Part shown: in pieces, positions 55,201-60,919 of the stretch | Position numbering within the stretch: position 1 is the stretch's first letter | How the letters are laid out: each line of letters begins with the position of its first letter | Source of the DNA: Ruditapes philippinarum | Taxonomy: Eukaryota | NCBI RefSeq assembly: GCF_026571515.1 | Contig: NW_026862826.1 | Coordinates: forward strand, 1-64,000 | Direction: 5' to 3' | DNA: 64,000 bases | Position numbers: made by a program

Positions 55201-58200
55201 NNNNNNNNNNNNNNNNNNNNNNNNNNNNNNNNNNNNNNNNNNNNNNNNNNNNNNNNNNNNNNNNNNNNNNNNNNNNNNNNNNNNNNNNNNNNNNNNNNNN
55301 NNNNNNNNNNNGTTCAAAACTTATATAAGGCAACTGTATACTGTACATACATTTAATATGATTATGTTTCACTGTCAAAAAAAACTTTAAATCTGTATAA
55401 CTAGATAATGTTTAAATGTTAAAATCACGGCTTTTCGACTTGAAACCGCTTGATAACGCTTTCACAGCATCGTTTGCATTTAAACTATCTTTGTTATATA
55501 AACATTATGACATTGTGGTTTAAAACTATTTTTGTCTGTTATAAAGCTTGTTTATTGGTTAGTATTTGCAGCTACCCGATGCGTAAACATATGATGCATA
55601 TCTTGTCTCATTTATCTTTTAATTTACATCATACTTCGTTCATTTATACAGTTATTTTTTACACTTTATTTTTTTTTCTACATTTTAATGAAATGTCGGT
55701 TATAATGACAAAAATTATAGTTGCCGTAAATGGAGCTTTTCATCAGCGTGACTAGCAATTTTATTCATTCCATTTAAAAATTTACTTTTACAACATTTAA
55801 AATCAACTTCATGTTCGAGAAAAGTCTATAGCTTAACAAATAAACGCATTACTTGATAGTTCATTCATACGGGTATTATTACGTATTGTGTCTGAATGAA
55901 TATGAAGTGTTAATACCCATTAACGTTTATTATAAACAGGCATATTATAATTATAATGGATTTTTAAATTTGGATTTGAGAGGATATTCTAGGTATATTT
56001 CGTTTGAAATTTTGTTAATTTGCTATGCTTATATACATGTAGACATATTATGATATGTTGTTCTATATTCGTGTGTATTATTTTATTATATTACATGACA
56101 GTACATTACGTTATGCTACGTTACGTCACGCCATGTCACGTGATGCCATGTCATGTTATGTTATCTTAATAATCTTCGCATATGGAACGAGCGGTGACTT
56201 AACGGTTAAGACATCTGCTAATACATGTACTGATCGTGGATTTGAACCTTATTTTAACCATAACCATTTTTTGTCTTTAATATGATTGTAGGTCTTGTTG
56301 TCTCAGTGAAACAAACTAAAAAATGAATTACATTAGTATTCAACATAATTGAGCAGGTGACATGATAACATGTTCAAACAATTCACTATCAAAAGGCTTT
56401 AACATGATCGTCGGTTTGCGATTTCACAAATTAGCCCGAAGAAAAATTAGTTAAATCGTGAAATTATATATCTTAAACATGTTTAAGTAACATTATGCCC
56501 ATCTAAGAGTAAGTGATGAGTGATAAGGTAAATTCGAAATCACTTTTCATTTCATCATATTTGCTTTCCTTTTAATAATAAAAGTCACCTGAATTATCGG
56601 TAATCGCCATCTCATAATACTTTTAAAAATCCTTCGGTAAAAAGAGTTGGGTAGTATTTTAATAGTTTAGGCTGTTTTAATATCTCATCGTATACATTTG
56701 CAATTATCTATTATTGTTCTATCACCATTATAATTGTCAATCTTTTGAAAATTGATAAAAGAAATATATTTATATACTTTAGTCAAGAAATATGTCAGCC
56801 TGTAACACTTTCATACATGTATCTTCTAAATTTAAAGACCTATTTCATGTTTTTTTTGTATTTAGAACCAGATGCATAAATGGACCGTCTTCTAAGGAAA
56901 ATGTTTCTTACAGTGGTGTTCAGCTGTTTTATACCATGTGGAGAGGCGTTCTGGTACAGTGGGGACACCGGTAAATACATTACACAATATATATGAAATG
57001 TCTTTAAAATTATATGAAATTATTTGCAAATTCAAAACAATATTGTATTGAAATACAAACAAGACAATATTATACTATACTCAAACTATAGTCAATATTA
57101 TTTAAACAAATGAAAGACCCTGATACGTGTCCGCATTTAATTTTGACAGTTAACAATGAATATGTGCAGTGTAGGGTTGAAGTGGGCCCCAGAGTTGTGT
57201 TTAAATAAGATACAACTGAACACTAATTATAATATTAAAACCAAAGAATGGCATTGTACTTTCCCGCAGTGATATTTGACATTTGTCATTAAATATGTGC
57301 TGGCACTGATGTCTGATTTAATCACTTTCTTGAAATCGTCTATCCGCGATGCCGGCGTATTTTGTCTTGTTTGCGTTTATTATTCTTTCTTTTTCGGTTT
57401 ATTTACTGTCGTATGTCTTTCGCGACAACCTTTGTTCTTGTATACACCTGGTGTTTGGCATCGAGCAATGGAAAATCTATCTCATATTTATGTCTCATCC
57501 GAAATACTTTTACCAAAGTAATGGGTCATGTCGATCGAACAGTTGGCCCTAGAATTAGTATTTCAGCGCGCTAAAATTTACATATGGGATCTCTCCGTTT
57601 GCTGTTGCCGCGTTACATCATTTGTATCGGTCCGTTTACTTTACTTGTTTTCAGTCCTCGCAAACCATTTTAAAATAATCGATATCCCCCTTTTTCCCTC
57701 TTGCTAACATAACGCAACAAAAAGGTGTAGCGTCTTTATTCTTTAAGTATCGTCTTTATGTGTGAATTCATCTAAATGGAACACAGAATTTAACACTTAT
57801 AGAAAACAATAGGATTGCCCTCGTCTTTTCTTAAGTGTTATACGAAGTGTAATCCTAAATACTATGTTTCGTGTTATCCTTTTTACTATTTTTCGTTAGT
57901 CTTTAGGATGATTTCAAATGATCATAAATACATTTATTACAAGATCTCGTTCAAACAATCACATGAAGTCAAATATAATTTGTAGTGTAATTAAATTTTA
58001 GTCGACCTAAAAGAAGGCAGGGAAATGTCATACAAACACATTTTGACGTTGAACGTCAACGGAAAAAAATCGATAATCTTCCTTTGCGATTCCATAGAAA
58101 ATATTGAATTAATGAGGACGTTATTCTTGCAATGAATTCATTATCACACTACATAGTTCGTCTTTTAGTAGAGGGAATTATAGAGCTAGGTAGGTGAACG

Positions 58201-60919
58201 ATAGGTGGAGTTAGGAGGAAGGGGAACATACTTGAAGTGTAAGCGTTTCTATTAGTTGGTGGTTTATTCAGATGTAGGCGATGGGGTGTTGTTATGGTAC
58301 AGGAGGAAATTATTGTTACTGGGGCGTCTTCGGAGCGATTTAGTCTCTAACTGCGTGTTTATTCAAAACCTGCACGAATAAAAGAAGATTACGAATATCT
58401 GCACCCCGATTTAGAGCTACCCTTACACTGATTTGAGTGAACATATATTTTGTTAACTTGGTTTAGAATTGACATTTATATTTTATAAAGATTGTTGACA
58501 GGTTATATGGCCCTGTATAAACGGCTGTATGTAAATATAAGAGTGAAATAAAGCTACAATTAACAAATTACTTCCATGTGTACTTAGTAACTGAAAACAA
58601 ATATGTTGCTGTTTAAATTATTCTTACTAGCAAAACTGATCACTTAATGTGTCGTTACCTTCCAACATTCGTTAGCAAAAACCTTATACATTAAACGATC
58701 GTCAAATTTACTTAAGATATCCCATATTATAGATGATATTAAATGAGTGTAGGTTTAATACTAAATTTATTGAACGAGTTGAATAAACTTCATACTATGC
58801 GAGTTCCTCTTTGGCGGAGCATAACATTGTTTTTATTCAAACGAGTTCAAAAGATTTAGTATTGAATCTACAACGAATATAATATTTCTTTTTATCAAAC
58901 ATTATTTAAAAAAAGGGATAACGGTTTAAACAATACGGTTTTACAGTTAAAACGAGTCATTATTTATTGACGTGCCTCTAGTATGTACGCTTTGCAATTA
59001 GCGCAACTTTTTAACGCTATGTGTATATGTTAGCGTAAATGACGTCACGTCAAGGTGTTTATTACACTAGTTGTAAATTATCGTTTTTTTAAATTAAATG
59101 GCTTTTATTTACAATCCCGCGCCCCGGCGTTTTATGTTGATAAAACACTGTAACGAATACCACGAGTTCGTTATTGCAATCAAAACTCTTTATTATTACA
59201 ATTATTTCATTATCAGTTATTTGCAGTTTTGAATATTTTTATGTTAACATGATTAATTCAACTCATTGCTTTATTTGAATTGGTCTTTTAAAACAGATGA
59301 GCAGAAAAGGTTCGACGGTGAAATCCTTCCAAAAGATCCAAACGTGTGTACAACTCAGAGTATTACATTCACAGGTGTACTTAAGGACGATCCAGTAACG
59401 ACTTACTCCATCGGCTTTACTTATCAATCTAGAGACACAAACGGAAAATTCGTTACTGTCGACCAGAATAATGTCACATACATTAATGATACGATGGCTG
59501 AATATACAGTGCCCTATATCCCGCCTCTAACTGATCTAAAAATACCGCACTATATGCATGTTAACAGCTATTATTGGCAAGTCTTTGGTGATAATAATAA
59601 AACGTTGCAGCTTGGGGAAACCACCACAGCACGTTTTTTCCGTAAGTTCAGATACTATATTTCTTATTATTTTATCCTCAAGGTCAAGCAATTGAAAAAT
59701 ATAATAAAATATGGTCTGATTTGATAAAAAAAAATCTGCAGAAAATAATGCATATTGCATGTGATATTTATTGAAAGTAAATTTAACTAGCTCCAAATCA
59801 CTTGCAACTCACCACTGTTGAAAGGACTTTTGATGGAAGCTTATTGCTTTATTGAGGTACCAGTTCCTGCCCGAAACAAATGCACAAAGGTGCACCAACT
59901 TGTAAAGCTAGAAAGTCGCAATAATGTATGTACACTGGTCGTTGTGACATTAAAATCCGACAAATCCAATAAATAAAATTATTATCGGCAACCCAAAATG
60001 AATATAAATAAGTTTTAAACAAACCCCTTTTTTACACTCTTGCCAGTAAACTTTGATGAAACAAAATAAATGTCCCCTCTACTTCACCGCATGCCCACCT
60101 TCTTAATGTTGGGTGAATTCCAATTGTCCCAAACTTCATCCTCTCAATAATTATTTCCAGAAAATTTTTATATCTAGGATTTAATGGGAAAACGAAAACC
60201 TGGGCGGGGGGGCATCCGGGGCCTTCTCCAAGGGGTTTTAAGGTAGGAAAAATTTCGCAAATTTAAGACTTTTACGAATGTTGGAGCGACCAAAAACCCA
60301 CCCCTTTTGAATGTTAAACCAGATATAAATATAGAATTTTTTAAACGGTCCAAAAGGGTATGCTCAAATTTAAGTTAAAAATGTTAAAAAGTTTTTGATT
60401 TGGTTTAAAAAAGGTTTTTGGTTTTAGGAAAAATATAAAGAAATATGCATGTTTTTATGTGTGGTTTTTTTCGGGGAAAAAAAACCCGACTATAAAAATC
60501 ATATTTGTATAAAAAAAATTTATCCCAAAGATTATCCCTTACCCTGGCCCAATTTTTTCCAAAATTTTTTTGGGTTTTCCCCAGTATTTAAATGACCTTT
60601 AGAATTTTTTCTTTCGGCCCGCCCAGATTATTAATTAACTACATTAACTCTTTTTCTACATAAAGCATATGTATTTAACTAAATAGAAAACAAGCTAATA
60701 CGTTTAGTTCAGTTGAGTTCAGTCTTGTTATAGAATTGTTTGTATAATTTATGATATTAAAAGAAAAATCATTTTTCAGCAATGCCCGAGGAAGTTCGTG
60801 ATTTTGATTGTATAAGTGAAAAAATTACGAAACGATGATATGTTACTGGAGCTACGGAACCGACTTTGGTTTGTTTATGCCGGAAGTAACTTTTTCAATG
60901 GTAAATATGTTTTCTTTTA

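What the first reader, a model, noticed from the sequence alone, without database searches (positions are those of the whole stretch)
56866..60900. Hidden gp130/Domeless-like class I cytokine receptor gene
Three exons splice with matching phases (1, 1, 2) into signal peptide, gp130-D1-like Ig domain, then PMPEEVRDFDCISE-NYETMICYWSYG. The Cys/Cys/Trp signature and the phase 1 then 2 introns match the known class I cytokine receptor exon pattern. Only the middle exon shows in the ORF track. Invertebrate JAK/STAT receptors outside insects are poorly characterised and their ligands are largely unknown.
Basis: partly seen in the sequence, partly recalled or inferred. Interest (0 to 1): 0.75.

Follow-up and report, generated by a model that had tools for sequence, protein, structure and literature searches.

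The report
Clam gp130-type cytokine receptor, 5′ exons
These are the first three exons of a clam gene from a family related to the vertebrate cytokine receptor gp130; it is an ordinary, already predicted gene, and its third exon is out of frame in this assembly.

Summary
The three exons exist at the stated junctions (56880-56970, 59297-59641, 60780-60900) with GT/AG borders.

**Public models.** A public 164-aa gene model is identical to their splice product. The closest named relative is Ruditapes philippinarum LOC132725410, 89% identical over exon 2.

**Family identity.** A profile of the clam family aligns end to end with human gp130 (Ig domain, cytokine-binding region, three FN3 domains, membrane span). 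E = 4.5e-26, and the 13 best solved-structure matches are all gp130. A model of the close paralog finds gp130 first by fold (E = 2.6e-24). The gp130-type reading is therefore supported.

Exon 3 changes frame at an A6 run and returns at a T5 run, with two stops in between as assembled. This could be a consensus error or a real disruption; I cannot tell which.

**Limits.**
- No further exon lies in the last 3.1 kb of the window.
- Exon 2 alone gives only a generic Ig fold.
- The family has no exact WSxWS motif.
- Mollusc IL6R/gp130-like receptors are already in print (PMC13203501).

Verdict: a new member of a known kind, of low to moderate interest.

The parts
56880..56970 (+). Exon 1: ATG plus a signal-peptide-like leader (basic start, hydrophobic core, small residues G-E-A). 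Phase 1 donor G|GTAAAT. An alternative phase-1 donor at 56958|56959 (A|GTGGGG) would make the product collinear with the RefSeq paralog.
   Evidence: tblastn to P0021 residues 1-27: 70% identity, E = 6.9e-8. The public model P0003 uses the 56970 donor. The signal peptide is judged by eye; no predictor was run.
56971..59296 (+). Intron 1 (2326 nt), GT...AG
   Evidence: borders as in the public model P0003.
59297..59641 (+). Exon 2 (345 nt, phase 1 to phase 1): one Ig-like beta-sandwich domain, D1 of the receptor. It lacks the B-F strand Cys pair that a sister group of the family keeps.
   Evidence: 100% identical to P0003 and 89% to P0021. AlphaFold model pLDDT 83.0, pTM 0.75, six strands. Only generic Ig-fold matches. 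Cys/Cys against non-Cys/Ser pattern.
59642..60779 (+). Intron 2 (1138 nt), GTAAGT...CAG. It holds a homopolymer-rich, stutter-like patch at about 60000-60750.
   Evidence: Same-as-previous-base rate 0.46-0.47 against a window mean of 0.325 (sd 0.054), z about 2.5. Four single-exon relatives (P0004, P0010, P0011, P0012) run on past the end of the D1 domain with R-K/R-T residues where spliced family members continue with P-x-P. P0004's tail matches the window's own read-through across this donor, so I take it to be unspliced read-through at the same place.
60780..60900 (+). Exon 3 (121 nt as assembled): start of the cytokine-binding domain D2, with the P-x-P lead-in and the first Cys pair followed by Trp (C-x9/10-C-x-W). 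It ends ..FQ + TG (phase 2), then GTAAAT.
   Evidence: Matches to P0021 143-153 (one frame, 11 of 11) and 156-183 (other frame, 21 of 28), E = 7.4e-11. The homologous stretch of the family profile aligns to the first Cys pair of gp130 D2.
60819..60824 (+). First frame break: A6 run. Four A would be collinear with P0021; seven A would add one residue.
60891..60895 (+). Second frame break: T5 run (or the C before it). The frame returns here to the one entered from exon 2.
60901..64000 (+). Presumed intron 3, running off the window: (TA)n and three tandem arrays (61448-61977, 62937-63261, 63572-64000). No exon matching residues 184 onwards of P0021 or of the other 6 relatives.
   Evidence: tblastn shows nothing better than E = 6.4 here, and that hit lies in a satellite.

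Best explanation
The window holds the first three coding exons of a venerid-clam gene that is a young paralog (or very divergent allele) of Ruditapes philippinarum LOC132725410. The gene belongs to a clam family homologous to the vertebrate 'tall' class I cytokine receptors (gp130/IL6ST, LIFR, OSMR, LEPR).

Shown:
- The exon borders.
- Identity to a public gene model.
- Homology of the family to gp130 over D1-D6 and the membrane span.
- The gp130-like fold of the closest paralog.

Inferred:
- The complete protein would be a type I membrane receptor.
- Its Ig-like D1 (exon 2) and cytokine-binding region (starting in exon 3) would bind a still unknown helical cytokine-like ligand.
- It would pair with a second chain and activate a JAK docked on the membrane-proximal tail, and then a STAT.

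Whether this copy is intact is open. Exon 3 is out of frame between an A6 and a T5 run. I lean (about 0.55 to 0.35) towards homopolymer errors of the assembly rather than a real disruption. The confidence of 0.85 below is for the identity of the gene, not for its intactness.
For: - The public model P0003 equals exon 1 + exon 2 + exon 3 read in the entering frame (against 3, 4, 5).
- tblastn of P0021: E = 1.1e-62, 7.4e-11 and 6.9e-8 for the three exons.
- D1 tree: the window groups with P0021 (support 96/86) and then P0004 (100/99).
- Family profile A2 (17 rows) against solved structures: 34 sequences at E <= 1. The best 13 are all gp130, with the top hit at E = 4.5e-26 over profile 34-686 and chain 7-619 in one collinear stretch.
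- Model of P0021 (pLDDT 74.6): gp130 chain first at E = 2.6e-24, TM 0.51/0.60. gp130 D1-D3 crystals have target TM 0.67-0.70. Leptin receptor is at ranks 9-11.
- Pfam: fn3 above cut-off in 4 of 7 relatives, and Lep_receptor_Ig above cut-off in P0005 (30.7 against 28.8).
- NCBI names: 2 of 14 'interleukin-6 receptor subunit beta-like' and 2 of 14 'leukemia inhibitory factor receptor-like'.
- For the error reading: both breaks lie in homopolymer runs. A stutter-like patch ends about 30 nt upstream. The out-of-frame stretch still matches P0021 at 21 of 28 residues. Of the family-invariant residues I checked by eye, only one differs, Tyr to Phe.
Against: - Exon 2 alone matches no Pfam family at E <= 10 and no cytokine receptor in the PDB by sequence.
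- Its model has 0 fold matches at E <= 0.001, and none of the 50 best is a cytokine receptor.
- A D1-only profile reaches gp130 D1 only at E = 0.15-1.2.
- No relative has an exact WSxWS (0 of 12).
- IL6Ra-bind and LIFR_D4 stay below Pfam's cut-offs.
- As assembled, exon 3 has two in-frame stops, and the public model ends at the first.
- No exon 4 or later is in the window.
- There is no expression data.
- The closest paralog is itself only 497 aa, with a low-confidence tail and no clear membrane span.
- The joined exon 1-2-3 peptide was neither searched nor folded as a whole, so there is no score for the window's own product.
Confidence: 0.85

Rival explanations
1. The copy is really broken. 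It would be a young pseudogene, or a gene that now ends after D1 and gives at most a 164-aa secreted Ig-domain protein or a transcript removed by nonsense-mediated decay.
For: - The assembly shows two frame breaks and two stops in exon 3.
- The public model ends at the first stop.
- The family has many short or truncated members: 4 of 12 examined lack a membrane span.
- Exon 1 is more diverged from P0021 (70%) than exon 2 (89%).
Against: - Both breaks lie in homopolymer runs next to a stutter-like patch.
- They add 3 nt in total, so the frame is restored.
- The shifted stretch keeps the family's conserved residues.
- Exons 1 and 2 are clean.
Confidence: 0.35
2. It is a partial duplicate: only the 5' exons were copied, and no further receptor exons follow.
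For: - No further exon lies in the 3.1 kb after exon 3, which is filled with tandem repeats.
- Several relatives are known only as single-exon D1 pieces (P0004, P0010, P0011, P0012, P0016).
Against: - Introns 1 and 2 are 2.3 and 1.1 kb, so an intron longer than 3.1 kb is unremarkable.
- Exon 3 ends with a good donor in the expected phase.
- The single-exon pieces appear to be plain reading frames that run on past the exon (P0004's tail matches the window's own read-through), so they say nothing about gene length.
Confidence: 0.12
3. It is not a cytokine receptor but another Ig/FN3 surface protein (an adhesion molecule or receptor phosphatase type) that resembles gp130 only because FN3 domains are common.
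For: - The fold search of P0021 also lists contactins, LAR and RPTP-mu from rank 20.
- Ephrin receptors and neogenin appear in the profile search at E = 3.5e-4 to 0.015.
- There is no exact WSxWS.
Against: - Those matches cover single FN3 domains, or have TM 0.14-0.42. gp130 is matched collinearly over six domains and the membrane span, 20 or more orders of magnitude better.
- The two Cys pairs of the cytokine-binding domain are present in 11 of 12 relatives.
Confidence: 0.04

Closest known systems
Ruditapes philippinarum LOC132725410 isoform X1 (P0021, 497 aa, 'uncharacterized protein')
   Same: Same three 5' exons: 70%, 89% and 75-100% identity. Sister to the window in the D1 tree. Same D1 without the B-F Cys pair.
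   Different: Exon 3 is in one frame there, and 3 nt shorter by my count from its protein sequence. Its leader is 4 residues shorter at the exon 1/2 junction. About 11% of exon-2 residues differ, so it is a paralog or a very divergent allele.
Mercenaria mercenaria gp130/LIFR-like family (for example P0009 LOC123524111, P0022 'interleukin-6 receptor subunit beta-like', P0008 'leukemia inhibitory factor receptor-like')
   Same: 40-49% identical over exon 2, with the same lead-in and first Cys pair as exon 3. They show what the missing exons should encode: the rest of D2, D3, three FN3 domains, a membrane span and a tail of 48-854 aa.
   Different: Another genus. 9 of the 12 Mercenaria proteins lie on one 104-Mb contig. 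Whether the window's gene has a tail at all is unknown.
Human gp130 (IL6ST), solved ectodomain structures such as 3l5h, 8d82, 1i1r
   Same: The order Ig D1, cytokine-binding D2-D3, FN3 D4-D6, membrane span is collinear with the clam profile. It is the best fold match of the paralog. The lead-in P-x-P and C-x9-C-x-W of D2 align with exon 3.
   Different: About 20% identity. At the WSxWS place the clam family has G-[YF]-[YF]-S-D (0 of 12 exact). Both clam Cys pairs are followed by x-W. The tails are unrelated and up to 854 aa. No IL-6-type ligand is known in molluscs (PMC13203501, passages).
Drosophila Domeless and its short partner Latran
   Same: An invertebrate class I-type receptor that signals through JAK/STAT. 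A short non-signalling paralog damps it (PMC2914635, search listing and start of abstract only). The clam family likewise has long-tailed, short-tailed and tail-less members.
   Different: The dome cytokine-binding domain is one exon (PMC1963337, passage), whereas here it is split at 60900. That Domeless lacks an N-terminal gp130-type Ig domain is recalled, not tested. No Domeless sequence was compared here.
Molluscan 'IL6R' homologs of Yu et al. 2026 (PMC13203501)
   Same: The paper describes them as signal peptide, Ig domain, IL6R domain, three to four FN3, membrane span and tail, co-existing with JAK and STAT in Mollusca (passages read).
   Different: The main text does not mention Ruditapes, Mercenaria or bivalves (0 occurrences each). 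Supplements are closed, so I cannot tell whether this clam family was in their set.

Membership tests
Class I cytokine receptors, gp130-type 'tall' group (IL6ST, LIFR, OSMR, LEPR) | Cytokine-binding region whose first domain carries two conserved Cys pairs | tested here: inconclusive
   The window holds only the first half of that domain. The first pair plus Trp is there, but only when two frames are read. Among relatives, both pairs are present in 11 of 12; P0005 is cut short.
Class I cytokine receptors, gp130-type 'tall' group (IL6ST, LIFR, OSMR, LEPR) | WSxWS motif in the second domain of the binding region | tested here: not met
   The window's own exon lies beyond position 64000, so this was tested on relatives only. 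0 of 12 have an exact WSxWS, and 10 of 12 have G-[YF]-[YF]-S-D at the aligned place. Some accepted members, such as growth hormone receptor, also have a degenerate motif (recalled).
Class I cytokine receptors, gp130-type 'tall' group (IL6ST, LIFR, OSMR, LEPR) | Collinear architecture: Ig D1, D2-D3 binding region, three FN3 domains, one membrane span | tested here: met
   Met for the family, not for the window copy. One collinear profile match to gp130 chain 7-619, E = 4.5e-26. The fold match of P0021 is gp130 first. A membrane span is present in 8 of 12 relatives.
Class I cytokine receptors, gp130-type 'tall' group (IL6ST, LIFR, OSMR, LEPR) | N-terminal Ig-like domain of the gp130/LEPR kind (Pfam Lep_receptor_Ig) | tested here: inconclusive
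   Exon 2 alone matches 0 families at E <= 10. 1 of 6 D1-only relatives matches, at E = 0.077. P0005, with two copies, passes at 30.7 against 28.8 bits; P0013 scores 15 bits. The D1 profile against gp130 D1 gives E = 0.15-1.2. The model is an Ig-like sandwich with only generic matches.
Class I cytokine receptors, gp130-type 'tall' group (IL6ST, LIFR, OSMR, LEPR) | Membrane-proximal Box1 (proline-rich) motif that docks a JAK | not testable with these tools
   There is no tail in the window. Relatives have a conserved I-T-I-P-[DG] about 15-20 residues after the span. P-x-x-P or P-x-P occurs within 40 residues in 4 of 8 tails. YxxQ occurs in 4 of 8 tails (five motifs in all), roughly as chance would give by my rough estimate.
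Class I cytokine receptors, gp130-type 'tall' group (IL6ST, LIFR, OSMR, LEPR) | Conserved exon pattern: phase-1 introns between domains, and an intron between the two Cys pairs of D2 | tested here: met
   Phases are 1, 1 and 2 by count. The third intron falls after the first Cys pair and before the place of the second. That this is the vertebrate pattern is recalled. PMC1963337 (passage) says only that the gp130 splice structure is largely conserved among class I receptors.
Insect Domeless | Cytokine-binding domain encoded by a single exon (Drosophila) | tested here: not met
   The domain is split by the intron at 60900|60901. The Drosophila state comes from PMC1963337 (passage).
Molluscan IL6R-like receptors (PMC13203501) | Recognisable IL6R (IL6Ra-bind) domain after an Ig domain | tested here: inconclusive
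   IL6Ra-bind is below the cut-off in 3 of 7 relatives (14.4-19.6 against 24.3 bits). LIFR_D4 is below the cut-off in 3 (15.5-17.9 against 25). Exon 3 of the window is too short and too broken to score.

The most novel reading that the evidence does not exclude
Venerid clams carry a lineage-specific, largely clustered expansion of gp130-type receptors. At least 13 Mercenaria proteins were found, 10 of them on one 104-Mb contig, plus at least 4 Ruditapes genes counting this one. The family has split into long-tailed signalling chains, short-tailed chains and secreted or tail-less forms. It has also split into D1 domains with and without the Ig disulfide. The short forms, this young copy possibly among them, would act as decoys or modulators of an undiscovered family of molluscan cytokines, as Latran does for Domeless.
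Probability: 0.3. Interest if true: 0.5.

Novelty: new member of a known kind. Interest (0 to 1): 0.25.

Why it matters
Receptors upstream of JAK/STAT are poorly known in molluscs, and no ligand has been identified. The one paper found (PMC13203501, passages) reports IL6R-like receptors in Mollusca with no IL-6.

This locus adds little by itself, because the gene is already predicted and its relatives are partly named. It does point to a multi-gene clam family with unusual features: a degenerate WSxWS, both Cys pairs followed by Trp, very long tails and truncated members. Such a family could serve as bait for finding molluscan cytokines. It may also matter for immunity in farmed clams.

For the scan, the practical lesson is that this assembly has homopolymer-error-like patches that can break exons.

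Tried and rejected
- **Pfam, exon by exon.** Nothing for exon 1, exon 2 or the second piece of exon 3. The longer reading frame around exon 2 gave only a sub-threshold YDG hit (16.1 against 25 bits), taken as chance.
- **phmmer of exon 2 against the PDB.** 8 hits at E 0.047-1.9 (esterase, ribosomal protein L14, fibre proteins); none relevant.
- **Foldseek on the exon-2 model.** Generic Ig domains only; 0 matches at E <= 0.001.
- **ESM Atlas on exon 2.** Best score 0.83, recognition below the useful level; beta-sandwich families of no bearing.
- **A1 profile (mostly D1) against the PDB.** It hit gp130 at E = 1e-4, but through the D2-D3 columns against chain residues 309-411. I take that to be a different FN3 domain of gp130, so it is not evidence for D1.
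- **Six of the 18 hits** (P0014, P0015, P0017-P0020) are repetitive proteins with MucBP, LPXTG, TPS, cadherin or papain domains. They were dropped as compositional matches.
- **Search for further exons or a second paralog in the window.** Nothing better than E = 0.2.
- **Clean copy of the stutter-like patch.** A homopolymer-compressed BLAST found only weak 70-80% matches, so the patch is not shown to be a garbled repeat.
- **YxxQ STAT-docking motifs in relatives' tails.** Roughly at chance level by my estimate.
- **Bacterial promoter/terminator scan.** Irrelevant to an animal gene.
- **Cluster look-up of the public models.** It could not be made, so the source and name of the 164-aa model stay unknown.
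- **Literature.** No paper holds 'domeless' + 'bivalve' + 'cytokine receptor'. Searches found no study of this clam family.
- **Not done.** The joined exon 1-2-3 peptide was not searched or folded. Supplements of the papers could not be seen.

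
Full report
**What the window is.** The window is AT-rich (about 23-38% G+C in 2-kb steps). It is full of non-LTR retrotransposon pieces and tandem arrays. Its only clear host gene matches proteins of venerid clams, with Ruditapes philippinarum closest. It is not human sequence.

**The observation.**
- Exon 1 starts with ATG at 56880 and ends at 56970, before GTAAAT.
- Exon 2 is 59297-59641, between CAG and GTAAGT.
- Exon 3 is 60780-60900, between CAG and GTAAAT.
- Their lengths of 91, 345 and 121 nt give phases 1, 1 and 2.
- Exon 1 reads as a leader with a basic start, a hydrophobic core and small residues before the likely cleavage site. This is by eye; no predictor was run.
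- Exon 2 is one clean frame of 114 whole codons, 115 with the split first codon.

Exon 3 is not clean.
- The frame that comes in from exon 2 reads through the P-x-P lead-in and the first Cys. It then meets a stop four codons after ..ISEK, and a second stop later.
- The part with the second Cys and the Trp is in another frame.
- At the T5 run 60891-60895 the first frame comes back, so the exon ends ..FQ plus TG. This matches the ..FQW of the closest relative.
- The exon is 121 nt as assembled. The relative's protein sequence implies 118 nt by my count.

**Is it more than chance?** Yes. In a tblastn of 7 relatives against the whole window, P0021 matched as follows.
- Exon 2: E = 1.1e-62 (88.7% of 115 residues).
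- The two pieces of exon 3: E = 7.4e-11 (11 of 11 and 21 of 28).
- Exon 1: E = 6.9e-8 (19 of 27).

Nothing else in the 64 kb scored better than E = 0.2.

A public 164-aa protein model (P0003) is letter for letter exon 1 + exon 2 + exon 3 in the entering frame, down to the first stop (against 3-5). Another annotation therefore chose the same junctions. Four single-exon relatives (P0004, P0010, P0011, P0012) run on past the end of the D1 domain with R-K or R-T residues, where spliced family members continue with P-x-P. P0004's tail matches the window's own read-through across the exon-2 donor. I take this to mean the intron sits at the same place in them.

A second possible donor at 56958|56959 (A|GTGGGG, also phase 1) would make the leader collinear with P0021. 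Only transcripts can decide between the two donors.

**How the searches were run.** The spliced model was searched exon by exon. The joined peptide was not searched or folded by me, so there is no score for the window's own three-exon product as a whole.

**What exon 2 is.**
- Alone it matches no Pfam family at E <= 10 and nothing relevant in the PDB by sequence.
- Against 1.84 billion representatives it has 18 hits at E <= 0.001.
- Twelve are true relatives: P0003-P0013 and P0016.
- Six are repetitive proteins matched through composition (MucBP, LPXTG, TPS, cadherin and papain domains). I dropped these.
- With 17 aligned rows, AlphaFold gives a six-strand sandwich (pLDDT 83.0, pTM 0.75).
- Foldseek finds only generic Ig domains: antibody V domains, NCAM Ig1 and PD-1. 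The best is E = 0.019, there are 0 at E <= 0.001, and no cytokine receptor is among the 50 listed.
- A D1-only profile reaches gp130 D1 at the right place, but only at E = 0.15-1.2 (4 of 7 listed hits).
- One relative with two tandem copies of the domain passes Pfam Lep_receptor_Ig (30.7 against 28.8 bits). One of 6 D1-only pieces reaches E = 0.077.
- The family shows a tidy pattern at the Ig B- and F-strand places. Five proteins (six domains) have Cys and Cys. Eleven proteins, the window included, have non-Cys and Ser. None is mixed. Four of the 20 were not matched by my patterns.

In short, exon 2 is an Ig-like domain. That it is 'gp130-D1-like' rests mainly on its position in the family architecture.

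**What the family is.**
- Full-length relatives are Mercenaria mercenaria and Ruditapes philippinarum proteins of 461-1530 aa.
- Of the 14 hits, 12 are from Mercenaria and 2 from Ruditapes.
- NCBI names 2 of them 'interleukin-6 receptor subunit beta-like', 2 'leukemia inhibitory factor receptor-like' and 10 'uncharacterized'.
- A profile of 17 family rows against all solved structures lists 34 sequences at E <= 1. The best 13 are all gp130.
- The top alignment (E = 4.5e-26) runs in one piece from D1 to the membrane span (profile 34-686, chain 7-619).
- In that alignment the family's P-x-P, C-x9-C-x-W stretch, which is the homolog of exon 3, lies on the first Cys pair of gp130 D2. The family's G-[YF]-[YF]-S-D lies on the WSxWS of gp130.
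- A model of the closest paralog P0021 (11 rows, pLDDT 74.6, ends of low confidence) finds a gp130 chain first (E = 2.6e-24, TM 0.51/0.60).
- Ranks 1-8 are chains of gp130-containing complexes, and leptin receptor is at ranks 9-11.
- gp130 D1-D3 crystals have target TM 0.67-0.70.
- Adhesion-type FN3 proteins appear from rank 20 with TM 0.14-0.42.

Features counted on 12 relatives:
- Two Cys pairs, each followed by x-W, in 11.
- An exact WSxWS in 0.
- A membrane span in 8.
- Tails of 48-854 aa.
- A conserved I-T-I-P-[DG] after the span, with P-x-x-P or P-x-P in 4 of 8 tails.
- YxxQ in 4 of 8 tails, roughly as chance would give by my rough estimate.

**Place of this copy.** In a D1 tree of 21 rows the window joins P0021 (support 96/86) and then P0004 (100/99), on short branches. 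It is a young paralog or a very divergent allele of LOC132725410.

**Is the copy intact?** I cannot tell.

For an assembly error:
- Both breaks lie in homopolymer runs.
- Together they add three bases.
- The shifted stretch keeps the family's conserved residues, with one Tyr-to-Phe change.
- A patch with the look of unpolished long-read sequence ends about 30 nt upstream. Its same-as-previous-base rate is 0.46-0.47 against a window mean of 0.325, z about 2.5. Similar patches lie at 8250-9000 and 11000-13500.

For a real break:
- The assembly says so.
- The public model stops there.
- The family has many truncated members.

A compressed-sequence search did not show the patch to be a garbled copy of a clean repeat. 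I put the error reading at about 0.55 and a real disruption at about 0.35. The rest goes to a partial duplicate without downstream exons.

No exon for the rest of D2 lies in the 3.1 kb that remain, which hold (TA)n and three tandem arrays.

**How it would work (inferred from established knowledge of gp130-type receptors).**
- The leader is cleaved.
- D1 and the D2-D3 elbow bind a helical ligand.
- Two chains are brought together.
- JAKs on the membrane-proximal tails phosphorylate each other and the tail.
- STATs dock and go to the nucleus.

None of this is shown for any clam protein here. Short-tailed and tail-less relatives could act as decoys, as the short receptor Latran does in Drosophila (PMC2914635; I saw only the search listing and the start of the abstract).

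**Comparison with what is known.**
- The family is homologous to gp130 and shares its domain order. It is nearer to gp130 than to Domeless.
- Passages of PMC1963337 say the Drosophila dome binding domain is one exon, while the Ciona gp130-like gene has the complex gp130 splice structure that is largely conserved among class I receptors. Here the domain is split after the first Cys pair.
- The strict hallmark WSxWS is not met in the relatives, and Pfam's IL6Ra-bind and LIFR_D4 stay below their cut-offs. I therefore file the family as a divergent gp130-type lineage, not as an ortholog of IL6ST.
- Passages of PMC13203501 (12 of 34 places shown) report IL6R-like receptors in Mollusca with an Ig domain, an IL6R domain, FN3 domains, a membrane span and a tail, and no IL-6.
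- The main text of that paper names no Ruditapes, Mercenaria or bivalve. Its supplements could not be seen.
- Searches found no study of this clam family in the held library.

**Verdict.** The gene is ordinary and already predicted, and exon 3 is broken in the assembly. It is a new member of a known kind. Interest is 0.25, mostly for the clam-specific expansion that it belongs to.

Noticed in passing
window 8250-9000, 11000-13500, 60000-60750: Patches where nearly every base is doubled or tripled. The same-as-previous-base rate is 0.46-0.60 against a window mean of 0.325. They look like unpolished long-read consensus and could break other exons in this assembly.
   Followed up: partly
window 1117-2379 (+), 31589-32437 (+), 54124-54693 (+): Non-LTR retrotransposon remains. 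The first has an endonuclease domain (Exo_endo_phos, E = 5.5e-8) and the second a reverse transcriptase (RVT_1, E = 1.7e-9). The third resembles the tail of such an element by eye but has no Pfam hit.
   Followed up: partly
window 61448-61977, 62937-63261, 63572-64000: Three tandem arrays with periods of about 158-186, 167 and 156 nt. The first is built around a palindromic TTGTTCGATCGATCGAACAA core.
   Followed up: no
window about 55066-55310: A run of N (seen as X). It was left as it is.
   Followed up: no
window 56958-56971: Two candidate phase-1 donors lie 12 nt apart at the end of exon 1. The upstream one would remove four residues and make the leader collinear with the RefSeq paralog.
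   Followed up: partly
relatives P0005, P0010, P0013, P0016, P0025 against the window and 10 others: The Ig-like D1 keeps its B-F Cys pair in one group of the clam family and has lost both Cys together in the other. No mixed cases were found among the 16 that could be scored.
   Followed up: partly
relatives: 10 Mercenaria family proteins sit on one 104,084,471-nt contig: P0009, P0013, P0022, P0023, P0024, P0026, P0008, P0028, P0005 and P0027. P0027 is named 'homeobox-like protein HDP1' by NCBI, probably a misnomer. This suggests a clustered expansion; their positions were not available.
   Followed up: no
window 44408-45562 (-), 41486-41857 (+), 16102-16410 (-): Reading frames of 102-123 aa with no Pfam match. 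They are probably remains of repeats.
   Followed up: no
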